Assembly (NCBI GenBank): GCA_964016885.1
Contig: OZ024743.1
Location: 303,676,001 to 303,740,000 of the forward strand
From: Eledone cirrhosa
Lineage: Eukaryota
Length of the DNA stretch: 64,000 nucleotides
Reading direction: 5' to 3'
Shown piece after piece: positions 630-48,815 of this stretch. Each line of letters opens with the position of its first letter. Position 1 is the first letter of the stretch. The position numbers and the translations under genes are program-made. The notes beneath the pieces were generated by a model. That model was not told where the DNA came from. It saw only the letters and a program-made list of their open reading frames with translations, and searched no databases.

Positions 630-3600
630 ATGCCTAGAAAACGTTCCAGATCATTATGTGGAAGGTCATCTTCAGAGGTTAAGAGAAAGAAAACACAGCG
701 ATCTGAAGAAAGTGAAGAAGTTCGGCATGCCCGTTTAGCTGCTAACAGAGCCCAAACAGCTTTAGCACGAGCACACCGTTTGGATGAAAGGGAACAAAGG
801 ACTGCTGCTACACAAGAACAACAAATTTAGGACCGGCCCCAAATCAGACGAAATTCTAATCAAGCACATCGTTCTACTGCCCGAGCAAGAGAACAAGCCA
901 CAAGTAAAATGAACTGGCTGATGGGTGCTTTTACTTATGACGCCCAAAAGGACTACAGCAGTAATCCACAAATCAACATTGGGAAAATGAACAAATGCTG
1001 CCAGTATTGTGGTGCCAAGAATTGGGCAGCAAGTTTATGCTGCTCAAAAGGCAAACTGAGCCTTAAAACAATACAAGAACGTCCTGAATTTCTGAAGAAT
1101 CTGCTCCTTGAGCATACACCAGAAGCACGACACTTCAATAAATACATCATAAAATATAATTCTGCCTTTCAAATGACATCTTTTGGGGCTGACAGGAATG
1201 TGACTGACTTTAGATTCTGTACAACTTATAAAATTCAGGGACAGCGTTACCACTTAATGGGTGGCCTTCGCCACTTCCACAGGAGCCTCACAAATTTGTG
1301 CAGGTTTACTTCATGGATGGAAATGAAATACAGACACACAAAATGTGTACCAATGTCCGTGGTGGATTGCAGTTCTACATAGTCATAAAGTTACAAGAAA
1401 TGCTTCACCAACATCACATGTACGTCAGTGTATTTAAATATGCACTGGAGCATTTGAACAACACCAGAGATCGTAAAATCATCATTAGGACAGACAAACG
1501 CCCAGCTTCAGACCATGAACGCAGATTCAATGCACCTGTCACCTATGATTCACTCCAATATCCTCTAATCTTTTGGAATGGTCAAGATGGATATCATGTT
1601 CAGCTACGGCAGATAAACCCAGGAACGGGACAAGAAACTGGCCGATCAATCAGCTGCAAAGAATTCTATGCTTTTCATTTCATGGTACGTGATCACTTCA
1701 ACCAAGTTCTGCAATTCAAAGAAGTAACCAGCCAGTTTCTTGGTGGACATGTATGCCAAAATTGAAACAGAAAGATTGGATTTTCTGCGAAGGAATCAAA
1801 CTAAGTTGAAGGCAGATAACTACATCCACCAATTCTGATGTTGACCCAAGAAATGTTGGCCATACTACTATCAAGCTTCACGGAGGACCACGTTACATAC
1901 ATGAACGAACGCAAGATGCAATGGCCTATGTCAGAAAATGTGGTCGGTCAGATCTCTTCATTACATTTACATGCAATTTAAACTGGTCGGAAATATCAAA
2001 TGAATTATTTCAAAATCAAAAGCCAAATAATCGACATGACCTCATTGCTCTTTTTTTTCCATGAAAACAAAAAAAACAACTCGTCTTGCTCCTAAAAGAA
2101 GAAAGAATCTTAGGTGAGCTTAGTGCTTGGATAACCACTATTGAGTGGCAGAAGAGAGGTCTTCCTCACTCTCACACACTAATCTGGTGCAAGGAGAAGA
2201 TAAGACCAGATGATGTTGATAAGAACATTTCAGCAGAGTTTCCTGATAACGTTGGTGATCCAGAGCTCTTTGAAAACACCAAGTCCAAACTCATTCATGG
2301 TCCATGTGGAGTCATCAATCCAGCCTCTCCCTGCATGAATGATTAAAAATGCAGCAAACATTATCCTAGAGCTTTTATTCGGAAAACTCGGACTGACAAT
2401 AATGGATACCCCCTTTATCGTAGACGTAGACCAGAACATGAAGGCAATACTGCAAGCCTAACAGTTCGAGGAGCGGAGCTGACCATAAACAAGCAGAGGG
2501 TCGTCCCACACAACAAATTGTTGTGTAAACTTTAAAAGCTCATATCATTGTTGAGTAATGCAGCACCGTCAAGGCAATCCTATATGTCAAAAAATATATC
2601 AACAAGGGAAGTGACATGGCTACCTTTATTACTGACAAAGAACTCAATGATGGTGGGCTGGATGAGGTCAAATCGTATCAAACAGGTCGATACATCTCCA
2701 GCAATGAAGCTATCTGGCGAATCTTTGGATTTGATATCCACCAACGCCACCTAACAGTGGTCAACCTCGCAGTCCACCTGGAAAATGGACAGAGAGTGTA
2801 CTTCACTGAGATCACTACTCATCAGTTGGCACAAGCATCACATGTAACTACACTAACTGCTTTCTTACAACTCTGCCAGAATGAGGAATTTGCTCGATCC
2901 CTCCTATATGCTGAAGTCCCAACATACTACACCTGGACCAATTGCAAGACCTGGAATCGAAGAAAGCAGGGTCATTTAGTGGAAGGTCGTGAAGTCAAGT
3001 CAAGTGATGCTATTGGGCGTGTTTACAATGTCCATCCCAACAACAGAGAATGTTTTTATTTACGGCTACTTCTGCATACTGTTCGAGGACCAACGTCACT
3101 TGAGGATCTTAGGTGCTTCAGAGCAAGGGAGTGTCCAACATACCAAGAAGCATGTAAACAGCATGGACTCCTGCATAACAATGGACACTGGAAGAAGTGC
3201 CTAGAAGTAGCAGCAGCAATCACTCAAGTAGCCAGTAAAATAAGACAATTGTTTGCTATTATGCTCACTGAATGTGGAATTGATGAAGCTCATCTACTCT
3301 GGCAGGAGTACAAAAACAATATGTTGGACGACTATCTACACCTAGCCCGAAGACATCATGGCAATATGTATATGGAAGATACCCCCAGCATTTAACAATC
3401 AAGCTCTCTGTGACCTCTCCATCGAGTTCAGGCAATGAATAGCACATTAGCTAACTGCGGGATGCCAGAGCCAGATGAAGAAATGGAGGTAGCACAAGAC
3501 ATGTTTCAGGAGATAAACTACGATATTCAAGCATTGCGTAAGTTTGTGGATGAAAATTAAACTCGATTGATGGATGATCAGAAATACGCCTACCACAACA

Positions 3601-5100
3601 TTATCGAAAACATTCAAAATGACAGGGGAGGACTTTTCTTCATCGATGCTCCTGCTGGCACAGGTAAGACATTCCTCATAAACCTCCTGATTGCAAAAGT
3701 TCGCCAAAAGCAACATATTGCCCTTGCTGTGGCTTCAAGTGTCATTGCAGCAACACTTCTGGATGGAGGCAGAACTGCACACATTATGTTTAAGCTGCTC
3801 ATAGATCTCACACGGCATGAACAATCTTTTTGCAACATCAAGAAGAACTCACTCAAGGGCAAGCTTCTGCAAACATGCAAGATGATAATTTTGGATGAAG
3901 CTACTATGAGCCATAAAGGAGTAATTGAAACTTTGGACCGGACGATAAGGGATCTGAGAGAAAATAGTTGCATAATGGGAGGATAGACAATGGTTCTTGC
4001 TGGTATATGTGTTGATATATTTTAGACAAACTCTGTCTGTAATTCTTCGAGGGACTCGAGCTGTCCAGGTCAATGCCTGTCTGAAAACATCCTATCTCTG
4101 ACCCCAATTTCAGCTGCTGAGCCTTACAACCAATATGCGTGTGCACTTAACTGGTGACGAAGGTGTCAGTGAGTTTGCCATCCAACTACTTAATTTGGGA
4201 AATGGATTTCTTGAAAAGGACTCCAATGACCATATTCAGTTGTCATTTGGCCATATCATTGACACAGTACAAGAACTGATTGCCAGGTGTTTCCAAACAT
4301 TCAGACCAGGAGGCAATGTGATCCGAAATGGCTCTGTGAACGAGCAATCTTAGCACCTAAAAATCTTGCAGTGAAAGAAATCAACAGAAGGCTGCTGGAG
4401 AGAAAATATGCTACAAATATGTTACCGGGAGAGAAAATATGCTACAAATCAGTTGACACAATCACTTCTCAAGACCAGGTTGTAAACTATTCAACTGAAT
4501 ATTTGAACAGTCTTGAACAAGAGGGAATTCCCCTACACAACCAGATACTGTAGCTTGGAGCATCGGTTATGCTACTTCGCAATCTGGATCCTCCAAAACT
4601 CTGTAATGGCACAAGACTCATCATCAAAAACATGATGTCCAATGTTCTAGAAGTTGCAATCATGTCAGGAAAACATTTCTGGTGACAATTTTTTCATTCC
4701 CAGAATACCTCTGAAGCCAACTGATTTACCATTTCAATTTCAAAGACATCAATTTCCGATAAGGCACAGCTTTGCCCTGACCATCACAAGGGCAATCATT
4801 GAAAGTCGTTGGGTTGAATCTGGCAGATCCTGTCTTTTCACATGGTCAAATATATGTTGGCACAACAAGTGTTGGGAACCCTGATTGTCTCTTCATTGCG
4901 GCAACACAAGGCAAAACCAAGAATGATGTTTATCCAGAGGCTTTGGAATGAGCAATGTCGTAATTCCGCATTCAATGACAATACACATAGATCCTAATTC
5001 CTTAGTCATGTAGTTTGCAAGGTATTCTGAAGCCGCAAATTTACTACATGGTGTTACTTTGGAAGAATATGCAGGCACTCCCGGGTACGTCTGCTATATA
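630..5100 (+). mobile_element. Decayed Helitron (RepHel pseudogene, many stops and frameshifts)
   Basis: Collinear ORF fragments: N-terminal E/R-rich repeats (RSEESEEVRHARL), CQYCGAK...CCSKGK, YNSAFQMTSFGA, DLFITFTCN (~1951), HUH motif TIEWQKRGLPHSH, IHGPCG, KYINKG (~2591), GRYISSNEAIWRI, LAVHLENGQRVYF, PIF1-type helicase FIDAPAGTGKTFL, ILDEATM, RAILAPKN, QFPIRHSFALTI. A degenerate 3' terminus-like sequence (cccgggtacgtctgcta) lies at ~5079-5095. Confidence 0.95.
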
Positions 5101-5952
5101 AAGTAGTATAAGTGAGGACTTTGTTGGGTAGAAATAGCAGCCAAATTTCATTCAAATCCCACCTTACTTTCTCAGGTATGTATATTTGTATGAAGCCAAA
5201 AGGAATGGTTCTATGTGATAACTCGATCTACTAGAAATATTATACAAATCCATTTCAAATCACAAACAACTGTCTTACACACATACATGTGTGTGTATGT
5301 ATCTATGTATGTCATGTGAGCCACTATAACTGTTGGTATAGCTAATAGAAATAGAAAATAAATCTCTCTCAAACAAGATCCTACTGCAATAGAGGCAAAT
5401 ATTGGTGAAAGCTACAGTGTTCAAATTTAAATACACTTTCCCCGAATTACAGAAATGAGTACGTAAATGCTTCATTCAATCATAAACCAATGCTAAATTT
5501 ATTTTCTTATTTTATTTATGGTTTTTAAAATAATCTTTAAATGTTGTTTGAATTTCTGAGGTTCAGATTGAGCAAAAAAAAAAAAGAAAGAAAAGGAGAA
5601 ATAAAAAAGTCTAAATGTATTTTTTTGGACAAGGCCTTTTCACTGACAACACACCTAATGATTCATCTATGAGTAAAGCATTATATGCTGACTGTAATAG
5701 GGAGCAGTATTATGACATATATGGTGACTGTAAATCACCACTGGAAAAATCACCACTGGAAAAATCACCACTGGAAAAAACTAATATTTTTATCTAGATG
5801 ATTTACTTTGACCAAACGGCAATAAATATTCTATAATTCCTATTTTGGTTAAAATTCAGCAATCATATTTGAAAGGTCAAACATTTTGTAATGTGTGCCA
5901 AATATATTGTAACTTTCATAAAATACCCGAGTATCACCTGGTCGCTCAGCTA

Positions 5953-23920: not shown

Positions 23921-23925
<5 letters not shown>
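23737..23925. mobile_element. Mini fold-back insertion containing a hammerhead 3' half
   Basis: GC-rich near-perfect palindrome 23815-23925 centred on ~23870, between two (TA)n tracts. Contains GAAAC-ggct-tgagctc-agcc-GTC. Confidence 0.75.
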
Positions 23926-24605
<680 letters not shown>

Positions 24606-24788: not shown

Positions 24789-26126
24789 TTAAGTAATAAT
24801 TGTTTGTATGAACTTTTGATGAAATTGTCTTATTTTTTCCAATTGCTCATGAAGCAAAATCTGATCAAGTGGAAATGTAAATTTAAAATGAAAACGTTGA
24901 TGATTTTCTCCAAAAGCTTTGCCAGGAATAACGTAAATACCCGTAATTTTATATAACTCATTACAGTAATTTTCTTCGAGATCTTGATATTTCTCCTGAT
25001 CGGAAATCCATCGGTTTGGAAACATTAATTTCGGAAATGCACATTGACCAGCAAATACACGGCAGCAACTCATATATGGTTGTAAGTTGAAAAAGTCAAC
25101 GGTGATTTCAGCAAGATTTCCAAGTAAATCTACAAAGTTATTTCGTTCATTTTCGAATCGCGTAAATGATTCGTATTTTCTTATGTGTTTTGGTGCAAGA
25201 AAAAGACTTAAGTAGATTTGATGTAATGTGGCAGGTGAATGGAACATATTTTTCGCAAATTTCTCTACCAATTTGTCTGTGCGTAAACAATCAACATAAC
25301 TTATATGCATACCTTTGTCACCCTGTGGACTTCTAGCTGGGGAGAAGAATGACATCAATTGCACAGATTCGTAAAATTCTCCCATCTGCAAAAGGGCTTT
25401 TCTTGATGATAAGAATGGTGAATTGTATTTTCTATGAACATCCAGCTGTAAATTCTCAATTGCCAGAGGCACAACTTTATGTTGCTTCGAAAAACGAAAG
25501 AATATCTCGAAGTCCTTTTGTGAATAAAGATGACCTGTCGGATATCCAGGGTTTTCTAAAAATATACAATGTATCTTACAATCAGAACCCTCCAGTGCAT
25601 TGACAAGTGCTTCGTTCTCCACAGTCCAATGATCATCTGCTTCGGTCAAGTAATAGGGGACAGGCATGAAACCACATAATTCTACTACTTGTTGAATTGT
25701 AGGTGATGACGGATACGGAATTAAAATGCCATAACCGCTATTCATATGAGCCCCCACGAACAAAGCTAACATATCGGTCAATAACGTTGATTCATTATTT
25801 TCAAGGAGAACCTCCTCATCGTCTTCCAGATATGAATTAGCATCTCTTTCCAAAATATAATTTGCTACCTGCTCTTTTATGAATTTATCTCCTGTCGTTT
25901 CAGAATAAGCTCCAACCGCGTTACTTTCAAATTCATCAAGGTAAAGTCCTGCCAACTCTTTTACATCTTCAGGAAAATCATTCGACGATGAAAGGTCCGA
26001 AAATAAGCACAAGGTTAAGACTTCTTTTAAATAATTGTATTCTATATTTTCTTCTGTGTAGGGGATGGAATCTAACTCCGACCGGTTTTCAAAATGCAAT
26101 TCTATTTTCTGTGTATCGCTGTCCAT
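24789..26126 (-). CDS. Intronless, divergent alanine aminotransferase-like protein (fold-type I PLP family), catalytic residues substituted
   Basis: Open 445-aa frame collinear with ALT motifs recalled from memory: GAYSETTG...IKEQVANYILERD, GILIPYP, VPYYL, ENPGYPTG, AIENLQ (ADEVYQ position), LMSFFSPAR (LASFHSTSK position), YCNELYKITGIYVIPGKAFG...HFKFT. Confidence 0.88.
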   Translation of the reverse strand: MDSDTQKIELHFENRSELDSIPYTEENIEYNYLKEVLTLCLFSDLSSSNDFPEDVKELAGLYLDEFESNAVGAYSETTGDKFIKEQVANYILERDANSYLEDDEEVLLENNESTLLTDMLALFVGAHMNSGYGILIPYPSSPTIQQVVELCGFMPVPYYLTEADDHWTVENEALVNALEGSDCKIHCIFLENPGYPTGHLYSQKDFEIFFRFSKQHKVVPLAIENLQLDVHRKYNSPFLSSRKALLQMGEFYESVQLMSFFSPARSPQGDKGMHISYVDCLRTDKLVEKFAKNMFHSPATLHQIYLSLFLAPKHIRKYESFTRFENERNNFVDLLGNLAEITVDFFNLQPYMSCCRVFAGQCAFPKLMFPNRWISDQEKYQDLEENYCNELYKITGIYVIPGKAFGENHQRFHFKFTFPLDQILLHEQLEKIRQFHQKFIQTIIT

Positions 26127-26700
26127 AATGTAAAGGAGAATAATTATACAAAAATAATTGTAAGTAAATAAAATATGCCTTACACGTTCAACTTAGTTAT
26201 TCTGTATTTTGTGGTGTTTGGGTTAAAATACAAATTGAATTCCAACTATATCCGTCTCATCTGTTAAAAGATTAAAGAAGCATTGTTTTTTAAACCGCCC
26301 ATCCCTGCTTTTATATCTATGGTTATATGCATATTCAGTTTGGATAAGTTATGTATAATATATTCCCGAACAGGTGTATAGATAACTAAATGTTAATTAA
26401 AGATAAAGGTAAAAGAACATACGAATCAAAGGAAAATATATAATTATGGCAATTGTCAGTAGAATTCTAGGCATACTTTTGTAGCTTCTGATGTTAAGAG
26501 TTTAAAGACAGGCATGGACCTTATACGGAAGTTCAGGATTGTTTCGAAATAATTATTAAAATATATACTCTGAATAATTTATAAAAATGATCTTGTCTTT
26601 CGTATCAGATATGATTATTTCGTGTGGATATCTTTTCACTTAACTTACAAATTATAAAATAAAACAATATAATGTTTCGTCGCATACATATATGCATATA

Positions 26701-26764
<64 letters not shown>

Positions 26765-44425: not shown

Positions 44426-46490
44426 TGGCGCAATTGTACGTGCGCATGTGTTGGTGGCTGGCTTTCTTTGTTTATGTCTGTGCCTGTTCTATTTCCTATA
44501 AATTACAAGTTCTAAATAAAGATCGATAAATAAGTACCAGACATGATGACTTAAGAAATGAGGTGGATATTGATCGACAAATCGAAGGCGGTATCGGGTC
44601 ATGACCACAATATTATAACATTAGAAAATGATGAAGGGATAAAACATTGTTCAGAAAGTAATGCAGGTTTTTAAAGTTTTTATCTAAAACGACATTTATT
44701 AGTGAAGCGCATATCTCATTGATCAAAATACAAAAAAAAAAGTAGAAAGTATATTAGCAGCTGCATAGGTTCGCTAACAATATGCACATCTATGTTGTCT
44801 GCTATCTTTGAATTCTTGAGTTCAGGCTATAGGTTCTTCGGAGGGATTTTCTTGCATTTATTTGTATAATGATGTATTTTCCTTCCAATATATTTTAGTC
44901 ATGTTTAAAAATATGGTCGTCAGAATGAGGCAGTGTTCCGTTGTCCGATTCGTCCTACTTCACGAAGGCTGGTTGTGCGATGTGTGGTTGAGCTTTCTAA
45001 TTCAAGAGGATTGAAAATGTATAGATTAATTTATTTTCCTATTATTGAGTACTTTCATCGTTTTCTTTTCAATTTTTCAATACCTCTCTACTGGGTTGTA
45101 AATATTAAGTAGCGAAACAACTTTTACAGACAATGGATATGTTAGAATAGGTATTAATTGGTTCTATGATAATGAGCAAGTGTTGAATGCTTTAAAAAAT
45201 TCTGGTTCCACTATGTCTAAACAATTTCACTATCGATACGTGTGATAACGAAGGCAATTATATTTTTGTCGATTCCTTTAGTAAATATACAAAATATTAT
45301 TAAATGATATTGTATTAACTTATTGTAAATCGTTTATTCAATTCTAAATTAACGTTTTAAGTAATATATCTTTCGTAAAACAATCCATCATCATATACGC
45401 CTGAGTAAAACTTGTGTTACCAACAAATTTTTATCTGGGTAGGGAGTGGAGATTTTCTGCTTCAGCAGCCGGTTTTGTAATTTATATTATATTCCCAAAT
45501 GACAAGAAAACATGCATTGCACGTAGAGGAGATGTACTTATACAATTGCAACATCATGTATATTGTAAAACACAATATATATTGTTTAAATACGACGATA
45601 ATGTATTATCGAAAATGCAATCATGTGAGAGCGTATAATATAAACGTATAATGCAGAACATGGAAGGAAATTTGACTGAGCAGGAATGTTTATCCATTTC
45701 TGAACATCCGACCTCTTCTTGAGACGACCATATTTGAATTAGATTTATGCAGCAGTCAGCCGAACGCGGACAACTACAAGCTCCCATATCATCGGACATA
45801 TCGTTGAATACAATACAAGCGTCGGATTATTACACACACACACACACACGCGCACACACACACATACACACATATATGTATGCATTATATACATACACAC
45901 ACACACATATATATATACATATATATATATATATTAGGTATAGGATTATCCAAGATGTAGTGATGGTTAATTACTACACTGGATATGGTTGACGTACGGT
46001 AAGAGGTTACTCTACGAGTTATGGAAGAATTGTACAAGAAACTTAGTTCCTGATCCTTCAGTATTCCGGAGTGTATATAAAGAATGAATAATAACAGGTA
46101 GACATCATAAAAAGGTAGTTTATTCCGTGTGCTTACAAGTGTTTCCACGGTGGTGCTGCAGCCTAGTTCCGCTACGTGCAAATTCACAAGTATTTGCACG
46201 TAGCGGAACTAGGCTGCAGCACCACCGTGGAAACACTTGTAAGCACACGGAATAAACTACCTTTTTATGATGTCTACCTGTTATTATTCATTCTTTATAT
46301 ACACTCCGGAATACTGAAGGATCAGGAACTAAGTTTCTTGTACAATTCTTCCATAACTCGTAGAGTAACCTCTTACCGTACGTCAACCATATCCAGTGTA
46401 GTAATTAACCATCACTACATCTTGGATAATCCTATACCTAATAATCGCCTCCTACACAGTTGAGCAACCACACCGACACACGGCATTAAT

Positions 46491-48815
46491 ATGGAAAGGC
46501 ATCATATAGGTATGTCACTTAAAAACATACCTATACCTAACAAAAGGGAATATATTCTCAGTATGATTCAACGCAGTAACGACTTCATTCGGCGTGTACG
46601 ATGGAAAGCTTTCCACTTCGATAAAGGACGCGCCAGTCACTCGTCTGAATCATATGGTTTTAAATCATGTAAAAACCCACCTACAAACCCTCACCTCGAA
46701 GCTTTCGAACAGGACTTATTGAAAACTACCATGAACATTAAGTTCAAAAGACATAGAAATAATGAGCTGCAGAACAACATGAAAGCACTACTCCGAAGAT
46801 TGCAAAATACCAATGGAATTGTTGTGAAAGCTGACAAGACTTCTAACGTGTATACCATGGATATCGATACGTATAATAACTTCATACGCAACGAACTACA
46901 CAAAAAATATAGAAAAACAAATGAAACTACGCTAGCAAATATTAACAACGAGGCATATGAAGTGGTAAAGAATCTCAAGATAGACGATAGAACCGAGCCG
47001 ATTATACCCGCTACCCCCACCCTCAACCTGAAGGACCATAAGGTAAATTTTGACTCTAACCCTAAGATTAGACTTATATGCCCTTCTAAATCAGACATAG
47101 GGAAAATTAGTAAACATATACTTGACAGAGTAATAACTCAAGTGAAAAAGAAAATTGAAATTAAATTATGGGGCAACACTAGCGAAGCAATTCGCTGGTT
47201 TAATAATGTTAAGAATAAGAATAAATCTAAGTTTATACAATTTGACATAGACGAATACTACTCTTCCATCTCACCAAGCACTTTACGTAAGGCCCTATCG
47301 TTTGCTAAGGCCAATTCCGACCTAACGGAGGACGAAATTAATATTATTCTCGAGGCTAGAAAAACCATTATTAAGTTCGATAACTGCTACTGGGAACGTA
47401 AGGACAGACCCACAAATTTCGATATTACCATGGGTTCCAACGACTCGGCGGAGGTCACGGATCTCGTGGGAATTTACATAGCCTACATATTACATAGTAG
47501 ATTTAGTAATCTACAGGGGGGGATATACAGGGATGACGGGCTCTTATTAGTTAATAACTTGAATAACCAAAATCTTGAAAGGCTACGGAAAAATATTAGA
47601 AAATCTTTTAGTGAACTGGGTCTAAAAATAACATACGAATACAATCTTAAGGTAGTAAACTTTCTGGACGTAACTCTTAATTTAAATACCGGACAGATAC
47701 GACCCTTCCACAAGGTAAATGAGAACCTTACGTATATTGACTTTAACTCTAACCACCCACTCTCCATGATCAAATCAGTTCCCCGGAGTATTTCTCTTAG
47801 AATCTCTCGCCTATCGTCTAACTCTGATATTTTTAGCGAACATGCTGAATACTACAATAATGCATTAAGGAATGCTGACCACCGGGATACAATAGAATAC
47901 ATCGATAGTAATTTCCACAACACACATAGCTCTACACGTAATCAAGGTATACGTAACCGGGGGACTAAAACACAAGCACACACACACAGTACTACCAGAC
48001 ATACTAATAATAGAAGATCACCACCAAATAAATCACGTTGTAGAAAGTATATCTGGTATAATCCTATTTTTAATGCCTCGATTAGTACAAAACTATCTCT
48101 TTCATTCTTTAAATTAATCAATAAACACTTCCCTAGTTCCCACAAGTAAAGCAAAATTCTGAACTCCAAAACTATTAGACTATCATACTCCACGGCACCA
48201 AACCTTGAAGCATACATAAAACTTAACTTAAGGCAATTAAACAACTCTACAAAACAAAACATTTTAGTAACAGATGGGCAGAACGCAATATCTGCCTCCC
48301 AACCACTAAATGGGAGACGGGTATTGCACAACCCACCTGTACCGCTATCACAACCTATCCATGGTATACCCGCTACCCACAACAAAGCATGTAACTGCCA
48401 TCTACCTGAAAGATGTCCATTGCAGAATGAATGCCTAAAGTCCAACATTGTTTACCAATGCACGGTTGAATCGGACGACCAGAAATGGTATTATATCGGA
48501 TCTACCACCACATCGTTTAAATCTCGCTGGTACCGTCATCGATTCTCAATCAAACATCAGAATCACCGTTTTGTGCCCACGCTCGCCAACAAGACCTGGC
48601 AACTCCGTGAACACAACCAACAGTTCACCTTAAAATGGGATATACTTTCCAGCGCAAATGCATATCGGAGTGGTCTGAAGTACTGCAGGTTATGTAACCT
48701 TGAGCTATTTTACATACTAAAATCCAAAAACAAACTACTTAACGATAGAATTGAACGATCATTATACTGCAACCACAAACTAAAAGCTAAATTCTCTCAC
48801 TATAAAATAACTTAA
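46491..48815 (+). pseudogene. PLE RT plus GIY-YIG polyprotein (774 codons) with one in-frame TAA at 48147-48149
   Basis: VKADKT, FIQFDIDEYYSSI, ITMGSNDSAEVTDLVG, IYRDDGL, VNFLDVTL, WYNPIF, CNCHLPERCPLQNEC, IVYQC...YYIGST, FKSRWYRH, CRLCNLE. ORFs 46491-48149 and 48324-48815 are in the same frame with no other stop between them. Confidence 0.95.

What the first reader, a model, noticed from the sequence alone, without database searches (positions are those of the whole stretch)
24789..26126. Intact, intronless alanine-aminotransferase paralogue with the catalytic set replaced: candidate pseudoenzyme
Seen: a 1338-nt uninterrupted ORF in a region where all TE ORFs are disrupted. By eye-alignment to remembered ALT motifs: STSK to SPAR (Schiff-base Lys to Arg265, codon 25332-25334), ADEVYQ to AIENLQ (pyridine-N Asp to Ile223, Tyr to Leu), NPGNP to NPGYP, RGGY to HISY (phosphate Arg), HFRMT to HFKFT (carboxylate Arg). 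The N-terminal ALT segment is missing. Established: these residues are required in fold-type I aminotransferases, and animal ALT genes are normally multi-exon. Inference: an old retrogene under selection for a non-catalytic role (structural, crystallin-like or sperm protein, or a regulator of ALT dimers).
Basis: partly seen in the sequence, partly recalled or inferred. Interest (0 to 1): 0.75.

Follow-up and report, generated by a model that had tools for sequence, protein, structure and literature searches.

The report
Conserved dead alanine aminotransferase in octopuses
This intron-free octopus gene encodes a copy of the enzyme alanine aminotransferase that has lost most residues needed to hold and use vitamin B6, yet it is kept as a tandem pair under purifying selection and has relatives in three other octopus species, so it is likely a non-catalytic protein, possibly a structural one in sperm.

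Summary
Observation confirmed. The minus-strand ORF 26126-24789 (445 aa) is predicted to keep the ALT fold (pLDDT 91; Z 41 to human ALT2). Ten of 13 alignable first-shell residues are replaced, including the Schiff-base Lys (Arg265); no other Lys is in register. A second intact copy lies 32 kb away, just outside the window (64% identity, dN/dS about 0.23-0.5). Three Octopus species have two gene models each, and three unnamed relatives lie at about 40%. One of those keeps the Lys but lacks the Asp, Asn, Tyr and both Arg, so the cofactor contacts probably went first. Several pocket positions are fixed to new residues (E191, Y195, N225, L226, K415), so the pocket looks rebuilt rather than eroded. 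The retrogene reading needs a correction: this genome also holds an intronless, catalytically intact ALT, and trees weakly favour that lineage as the source over the multi-exon gene. Role and tissue are untested. Best guess: a cofactor-free structural protein of the male germ line. Rivals: a new ligand site, an SPT1-like partner of ALT, or a somatic bulk protein. It is a new variant of a known kind (pseudoenzyme), not found in the literature searched.

The parts
24789..26126 (-). Single-exon ORF, 445 aa, ALT-derived pseudoenzyme (P0001). A tandem paralogue on the same strand lies outside the window at G000:C4:303667212-303668537 (L002, P0062), 32,252 bp beyond the stop.
   Evidence: model pLDDT 91.4
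26037..26126 (-). Residues 1-30: short acidic N-terminus replacing about 68 residues of ALT; the YAVRG and NIG motifs are absent; low model confidence
25905..25907 (-). Tyr74, equivalent of the trans-acting Tyr70 of aspartate aminotransferase (equivalence by recalled motif); the only first-shell residue kept in all family rows
   Evidence: 12 of 12 family rows; 119 of 119 catalytic ALTs
25791..25793 (-). Glu112 at the Gly108-equivalent of the phosphate cup (Ala in 119 of 119 ALTs); an acidic side chain where the PLP phosphate would sit
   Evidence: effect on binding inferred
25554..25556 (-). Glu191, invariant in 8 of 8 family rows and in 0 of 119 ALTs (Ile); last residue of the strand before the NPGYP loop
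25542..25544 (-). Tyr195 replacing the Asn194-equivalent (NPGNP to NPGYP); invariant in the family
25449..25460 (-). I223-E224-N225-L226 replacing D-E-V-Y: Asp222-equivalent lost (I, V, S or L across the family), Tyr225-equivalent fixed as Leu
25332..25334 (-). Arg265 (AGA) at the Schiff-base Lys258-equivalent; Arg in 7 of 8 family rows, Lys in P0058
25305..25307 (-). His274 at the phosphate-binding Arg266-equivalent (H, Q or S across the family)
24882..24884 (-). Lys415 at the carboxylate-binding Arg386-equivalent; invariant in the family
23923..24561 (.). (TA)n microsatellite about 230 bp downstream of the stop; a second, shorter one at 26684-26761 upstream. Context only.

Best explanation
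The gene encodes an alanine-aminotransferase-derived protein that is predicted to keep the whole fold, has lost the residues that bind and use PLP, is under purifying selection, and likely serves as a cofactor-free structural or scaffold protein, possibly in the male germ line. Shown: residue losses, tandem pair, dN/dS below 1, relatives, intronless catalytic paralogue. Inferred history: a duplicate of the intronless molluscan ALT lineage lost its N-terminal substrate loops and the Asp222, Asn194, Tyr225, Arg266 and Arg386 equivalents; the Lys became Arg later in one branch. Inferred mechanism: new fixed side chains (E191, Y195, N225, L226, K415, and a basic residue at 265) pack into the empty cofactor site and stabilise the fold without vitamin B6. 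The strongly acidic protein is then used in bulk or as a binding surface. The tissue is inferred by analogy only.
For: Ten of 13 alignable first-shell positions are changed, against 117-119 of 119 conserved in catalytic animal ALTs (first-shell list from PMC3823064 passages). Lys-to-Ala alone abolishes the function of a fungal ALT in vivo (PMC9040767 passages). Fold intact in the model: pLDDT 91.4, pTM 0.90; Z 41.3, rmsd 3.0 over 423 residues to 3IHJ. Selection: dN/dS 0.23-0.37 by four Biopython methods, 0.30-0.51 by a kappa-weighted count, bootstrap upper bound 0.62. 29 columns are invariant in 8 family rows but differ from the ALT consensus, 25 of them never seen in 119 ALTs. All 8 rows are acidic (pI 4.9-5.7) whereas 4 catalytic ALTs checked have pI 7.8-8.3. 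Traits common in male-reproductive genes (general knowledge; PMC2724483 abstract start): no introns; faster divergence than the catalytic paralogue (69% against 79% to Octopus orthologues); tandem duplication, signs of gene conversion and one truncated copy. Precedent: Drosophila S-Laps are inactive, testis-specific and structural (PMC6388916 passages).
Against: The tissue and the structural role rest on analogy; nothing here tests them. The N-terminus is acidic and does not look like a mitochondrial presequence (by inspection), unlike the mitochondrial S-Laps. Fixed new residues are enriched at first-shell positions (4 of 13 against 9 of 115, Fisher p 0.028), which fits a new ligand site as well as a plugged one; this was one of three post hoc tests (the others p 0.11 and 0.079). 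The 8 rows stand for only three deep lineages, 5 of them octopods. The model was built on an alignment in which 73 of 81 rows are other ALT-family proteins, which biases it towards the ALT fold. dN/dS comes from one paralogue pair. No family member from Argonauta appeared or 21 although two Argonauta ALTs are in the collection.
Confidence: 0.42

Rival explanations
1. The pocket was rebuilt for a new ligand or new chemistry: a non-covalent binder (for example of an unphosphorylated B6 vitamer, amino acid or keto acid) acting as sensor or carrier, or a non-transaminase enzyme. E191 would stand in for the lost Asp, Y195 for the lost Tyr, K415 for the Arg.
For: Invariant new polar residues cluster in the active-site loops (E191, Y195, H199, N225, D229, S266, K415). 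Position 265 is always basic. Enrichment 4 of 13 against 9 of 115, p 0.028. Every row has a Glu at the Gly108- or Thr109-equivalent of the phosphate cup. P0058 keeps the Lys and the ring-stacking Tyr.
Against: The N-terminal substrate loops are gone. The ring-stacking Tyr is Ser in 7 of 8 rows. The enrichment is weak and post hoc.
Confidence: 0.22
2. It is a non-catalytic subunit that heterodimerises with a catalytic ALT (most likely the cytosolic-type C15 enzyme), as SPT1 does with SPT2, and tunes or dampens alanine transamination.
For: The one first-shell residue kept in all rows is the Tyr70-equivalent, which acts across the dimer (role recalled). SPT1 lacks the PLP Lys and other catalytic residues and forms an obligate heterodimer (PMC6148460 passages). 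The family is acidic and the catalytic ALTs checked are basic.
Against: The segment matching ALT's xRLCPP motif (a second cross-dimer element, role recalled) has a 3-residue deletion in all 8 rows and varies freely. The N-terminal 130 columns and columns 261-350 are the least conserved parts (56% and 72% against 77% and 74% for P0001 and P0002), which is unexpected for a surface that binds a conserved partner. The N-terminal arm is lost.
Confidence: 0.12
3. It is a bulk somatic protein recruited from an enzyme, such as a lens or skin crystallin-like protein or a secretion component, and not a germ-line protein.
For: Cephalopods have recruited enzymes as lens crystallins (S-crystallin from GST, omega-crystallin from ALDH; recalled). 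The protein is acidic, with no hydrophobic leader by inspection, and the family has been duplicated.
Against: Divergence is faster than that of the catalytic paralogue and one O. bimaculoides copy is truncated in its gene models. One search found no paper naming six of the Octopus accessions; supplements were not covered by that search.
Confidence: 0.15
4. It is still an aminotransferase, through a relocated Lys or through RNA editing that restores catalytic residues.
For: A-to-G editing could turn H274 and K415 into Arg; coleoids edit heavily (general knowledge). Databases name the orthologues alanine aminotransferase.
Against: A-to-G change cannot give Lys265, Asp223, Asn195 or Tyr226 (8 of 10 changed positions are not restorable). 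K271 aligns to ALT's Cys and is not conserved.
Confidence: 0.03
5. It is a decaying, unexpressed pseudogene.
For: It sits among broken Helitron, LINE-type and GIY-YIG elements. No AATAAA or ATTAAA lies in the 228 nt between the stop and the TA repeat.
Against: Two intact copies with dS of about 0.5-1.0 and dN/dS of 0.23-0.5; neutral survival of the frame in 0-1 of 2000 runs; full-length relatives down to about 40% identity.
Confidence: 0.03

Closest known systems
Alanine aminotransferase (GPT/GPT2, fold-type I; human ALT2 PDB 3IHJ, barley 3TCM)
   Same: Top sequence and fold match (E 4.7e-50; Z 41.3, rmsd 3.0, 423 aligned); PF00155 above the cut-off; Tyr70-, Thr109- and Ser255-equivalents kept.
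   Different: 27% identity; about 40 aa shorter at the N-terminus; 10 of 13 first-shell positions changed, including the Lys; acidic instead of basic.
SPT1/LCB1, non-catalytic subunit of serine palmitoyltransferase (PMC6148460, passages read)
   Same: PLP-fold protein lacking the Lys and other cis-catalytic residues, beside a catalytic paralogue.
   Different: SPT1 is ancient, essential and an obligate partner of SPT2. This family seems limited to cephalopods, evolves fast, and has altered one of its putative cross-dimer segments; no partner is shown.
Drosophila sperm leucyl aminopeptidases (S-Laps; PMC6388916, passages read) and Bb8 (PMC4986964, PMC10652781; search listing only)
   Same: Duplicated metabolic enzymes with conserved changes at catalytic residues; S-Lap1 and S-Lap6 are inactive in vitro and structural in sperm.
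   Different: Unrelated fold; mitochondrial; testis expression is shown for them and untested here.
Lys-less ALT-like proteins of rays, teleosts, a salamander and a ladybird
   Same: ALT paralogues with the Schiff-base Lys replaced (by R, S, N or D), all annotated as ALT or hypothetical.
   Different: They do not group with this family, they keep the Arg266- and Arg386-equivalents, and they lack the ENPGYP, ENLQ and HFK signature; independent origins are likely.

Membership tests
Aminotransferase class I/II (PF00155), ALT branch by descent | Pfam score above the curated cut-off; ALT as nearest solved relative | tested here: met
   51.5 bits against 19.7; 3IHJ and 3TCM top by sequence
Aminotransferase class I/II (PF00155), ALT branch by descent | Fold-type I two-domain fold | tested here: met
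   Predicted model pLDDT 91.4; Z 41.3, rmsd 3.0, 423 aligned to 3IHJ
Catalytic alanine aminotransferase (EC 2.6.1.2) | Schiff-base Lys (Lys258-equivalent) | tested here: not met
   Arg265; Lys in 119 of 119 ALTs; K271 out of register
Catalytic alanine aminotransferase (EC 2.6.1.2) | Pyridine-N Asp222, and O3' contacts Asn194 and Tyr225 | tested here: not met
   I223, Y195, L226; each 119 of 119 conserved in ALTs
Catalytic alanine aminotransferase (EC 2.6.1.2) | Phosphate cup (Gly108, Thr109, Ser255, Ser257, Arg266, Tyr70) | tested here: not met
   E112, A264, H274 changed; S113, S262, Y74 kept
Catalytic alanine aminotransferase (EC 2.6.1.2) | Carboxylate-binding Arg386 and N-terminal substrate loops | tested here: not met
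   K415; YAVRG and NIG motifs absent
Catalytic alanine aminotransferase (EC 2.6.1.2) | PLP binding and transaminase activity | not testable with these tools
   Needs purified protein
Retrogene | Intronless coding sequence with a multi-exon homologue in the genome | tested here: met
   One open frame; the C8 homologue gives 12 separate tblastn segments
Retrogene | Direct descent from the multi-exon parent | tested here: inconclusive
   Sister to the cephalopod C8-type p-AU 0.028; with the intronless C15-type lineage 0.73-0.75; basal placement not rejected, 0.19; very long stem
Retrogene | Poly(A) remnant and target-site duplications | tested here: inconclusive
   None evident by eye in 230-300 nt flanks; expected to erode at this age
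SPT1-type non-catalytic heterodimer subunit | Cis-catalytic residues lost | tested here: met
SPT1-type non-catalytic heterodimer subunit | Cross-dimer residues conserved | tested here: inconclusive
   Tyr74 invariant; xRLCPP-equivalent segment deleted by 3 and variable; interface assignment recalled, not mapped on coordinates
SPT1-type non-catalytic heterodimer subunit | Heterodimer with a catalytic paralogue | not tested
   No heterodimer job was run
S-Lap-type sperm structural pseudoenzyme | Conserved loss of catalytic residues in a duplicated family | tested here: met
S-Lap-type sperm structural pseudoenzyme | Testis-specific expression and presence in a sperm structure | not testable with these tools
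   No usable expression data were reached
S-Lap-type sperm structural pseudoenzyme | Mitochondrial location | tested here: inconclusive
   Acidic N-terminus by inspection only; no predictor run

The most novel reading that the evidence does not exclude
An ancient cephalopod family in which the aminotransferase active site was re-engineered rather than killed: Glu191, Tyr195 and Lys415 replace the roles of Asp222, Tyr225 and Arg386, a Glu takes the phosphate's place, and the protein became a PLP-independent ligand sensor or an enzyme with new chemistry. The Lys-keeping member P0058 would be a living intermediate in that conversion.
Probability: 0.15. Interest if true: 0.8.

Novelty: new variant of a known kind. 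Interest (0 to 1): 0.5.

Why it matters
Pseudoenzymes of the fold-type I aminotransferases are little characterised beyond SPT1. This family is old, selected and mis-annotated as alanine transaminase in NCBI and UniRef records. It offers a natural series (catalytic ALT, Lys-keeping P0058, Lys-less octopus proteins) for asking how a PLP fold is stabilised or repurposed without its cofactor. It also flags a wider blind spot: 16 of 175 other ALT-like hits with a residue at that column lack the Lys too, so ALT pseudoenzymes seem to have arisen repeatedly in animals.

Tried and rejected
Expression: no RNA holder listed. The three runs behave as genomic DNA contigs, from one sample, and show no differences where they cover the ORF; this says nothing on expression. 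Homodimer prediction (residues 23-445, two copies): no answer, score 0.01 in two runs, alignment not used, controls not folded; it is not evidence either way. Literature: no paper describing this family turned up (8 unrelated papers; 0 papers; 0 papers with any of six accessions) or 67 (none of the 30 listed holds 'alanine aminotransferase 1-like'); most subscription papers and bioRxiv supplements are not covered. Supplements of PMC11202624 hold no per-gene testis table; those of PMC6341066 and PMC9068888 had no hit; bioRxiv 2024.12.09.627507 has no mention in its main text and its supplements are closed. Two papers asked for by recalled id were not held, so a recalled parallel with pyridoxamine-pyruvate aminotransferase (a Glu in the phosphate site) is unverified. 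The careful tree did not finish; FastTree LG put the family at the base; 10 clade-diagnostic columns were not decisive. The ESM Atlas gave only ALT clusters. Host gene: Pfam scans of 72 of 73 window ORFs and 81 of 94 flanking ORFs found only transposon domains; short exons would be missed. Rejected: relocated Lys (K271); rescue by A-to-I editing; haplotype or assembly duplicate (copies 64% identical); a third, P0058-type copy in this genome (3 matches of 5 candidates, all known loci).

Full report
Observation. The ORF is real: minus strand, 26126-24789, 445 aa. It matches PF00155 and, best of all solved proteins, human ALT2 3IHJ (E 4.7e-50). I took the 16 first-shell residues of E. coli aspartate aminotransferase from PMC3823064 (passages; the role of Lys258 from PMC9430417 passages) and mapped 13 of them onto ALT by motif; that mapping is recalled, not computed from coordinates. 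P0001 keeps 3 (Y74, S113, S262) and changes 10. The same positions are conserved in 117-119 of 119 catalytic animal ALTs (the 120 listed plus the C15 protein, 2 dropped for length). K271 aligns to ALT's Cys and varies in the family, so it is no substitute. A-to-I editing could restore only 2 of the 10 changed positions, and not the Lys. The predicted model is confident outside the first 22 residues (pLDDT 91.4) and is closest to ALT2 (Z 41.3, rmsd 3.0, 423 aligned).

Genomic setting. The genome holds four ALT-family loci: this gene; a second intact, intronless copy on the same strand 32,252 bp away, just outside the window (442 aa, 64% identical, same losses); a multi-exon catalytic-type ALT on C8 (12 tblastn segments; catalytic motifs visible); and an intronless ALT on C15 with every catalytic residue intact. 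The neighbourhood gave only transposon domains.

Selection. Over 442 aligned codons of the two copies, dN/dS is 0.27 (NG86), 0.37 (LWL85), 0.23 (YN00) and 0.24 (ML). My own count gives 0.30-0.51 for kappa 1-4, with a bootstrap range of 0.36-0.62 at kappa 3. Neutral simulation left the frame open in 0-1 of 2000 runs.

Family. O. bimaculoides, O. sinensis and O. vulgaris each have two gene models, about 66-69% identical to P0001. The O. vulgaris accessions are consecutive and the other pairs share a contig length, so the tandem layout is probably conserved. One O. bimaculoides copy is truncated in both of its models. Within O. sinensis the two copies are 96/129 identical in the first 130 columns but 126/127 and 95/96 in the core and C-terminus, a gene-conversion-like pattern. 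A profile search of 1.84 billion representatives gave three family clusters (860, 600 and 435 bits); the next hit is a lizard ALT at 233 bits. The organisms of the unnamed proteins are not on record; that they are other cephalopods is my inference from divergence. The family is one clade on a very long stem. P0058 branches first (the fork is open) and keeps the Lys and the ring-stacking Tyr while lacking the Asp, Asn, Tyr and both Arg, which suggests that the Lys was lost last; a reversion cannot be excluded.

Origin. Molluscan ALTs form two clades, one holding the C8-type gene and one the C15-type gene. A site-heterogeneous quick tree put the family inside the C15-type clade (SH-aLRT 99, with a long-branch warning). 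An AU test on fixed trees (LG+F+G4, 5000 replicates, fewer than recommended; 8 of 9 placements printed) favoured the C15-type lineage (p 0.73-0.75), rejected sisterhood with the cephalopod C8-type gene (0.028) and did not reject a basal position (0.19). FastTree put it at the base. The weak reading is a DNA-level duplicate of an already intronless gene, with any retroposition older.

Mechanism. In 8 family rows (of 14 held; near-duplicates and truncated models left out), 83 columns are invariant: 54 match the ALT consensus and 29 differ, 25 of these never seen in 119 ALTs. The new fixed residues include E191, Y195, H199, N225, L226, D229, S266, A359-G360, K415 and P419, many in the former active-site loops, while the phosphate cup and the Asp222 position drift. 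Fixed new residues are enriched in the first shell (4 of 13 against 9 of 115, p 0.028; two sister tests gave 0.11 and 0.079). All 8 rows are acidic (pI 4.9-5.7) against 7.8-8.3 for four catalytic ALTs. I read this as a pocket plugged by the protein's own side chains, giving a stable cofactor-free fold used structurally. The same data allow a rebuilt ligand site, and I could not measure the pocket. A role as SPT1-like partner (PMC6148460 passages) is favoured by the invariant Tyr74 but weakened by the deletion and variability in the xRLCPP-equivalent segment and by the fast-evolving N-terminal third. The male germ line is my best guess for tissue, from intronlessness, faster divergence than the C15 enzyme (69% against 79%), duplication and loss, and the S-Lap precedent (PMC6388916 passages). 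It is untested.

Comparison and verdict. By descent and fold the protein belongs to the ALT branch of PF00155. It fails the membership tests for a catalytic ALT; Lys loss alone inactivates a fungal ALT in vivo (PMC9040767 passages). Lys-less ALT-like proteins also occur in rays, teleosts, a salamander and a ladybird, apparently independently. The searches listed under Tried and rejected found no description of this family; supplements I could not see may hold expression data. Odds: not a working transaminase about 0.9; under selection about 0.95; structural germ-line role about 0.4. Verdict: a real, conserved pseudoenzyme family, a new variant of a known kind, interest 0.5.

Noticed in passing
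L002:1495-2823 (G000:C4:303667212-303668537, minus strand; about 7.5-8.8 kb before the window start): Second intact, intronless copy of the same pseudoenzyme, 64% identical; part of this finding but outside the window.
   Followed up: yes
L003:1489-2946 (G000:C15:43564113-43565570, minus strand): Intronless ALT with all catalytic residues, in a clade with bivalve and snail ALTs; possibly an ancient molluscan retrogene. Intron status in other molluscs was not checked.
   Followed up: partly
Proteins P0064, P0070, P0065, P0073, P0076, P0080, P0085: ALT-like proteins of stingrays, a skate, teleosts, a salamander and a ladybird also lack the Schiff-base Lys; 16 of 175 non-family rows with a residue at that column are not Lys. 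Probably repeated, independent ALT pseudoenzymes.
   Followed up: partly
Proteins P0003/P0037 and P0038/P0039: The Octopus tandem copies are nearly identical in the core and C-terminus but about 74% identical in the first 130 columns, a gene-conversion-like pattern that spares the N-terminal third.
   Followed up: partly
window 46464-48815 (+): A 561-codon open frame followed by one stop and a 221-codon frame with a weak GIY-YIG match (E 2.3e-4); looks like a fairly young Penelope-type element (class name recalled).
   Followed up: no
window 2065-3986 (+); L026:7869-8821: Broken Helitron-like elements (Helitron_like_N and PIF1 domains), one between the two pseudoenzyme copies.
   Followed up: no
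L025:1318-2310 and 4768-5568 (-), just past the window end: Long frames with no Pfam hit and with Thr, Lys, Asn and Ile-rich translations; they might be the opposite strand of a mitochondrial DNA insertion. Not tested.
   Followed up: no
L021:6249-9666 (-): Endonuclease plus reverse-transcriptase retrotransposon with a 609-codon open frame, about 3 kb beyond the paralogue.
   Followed up: no
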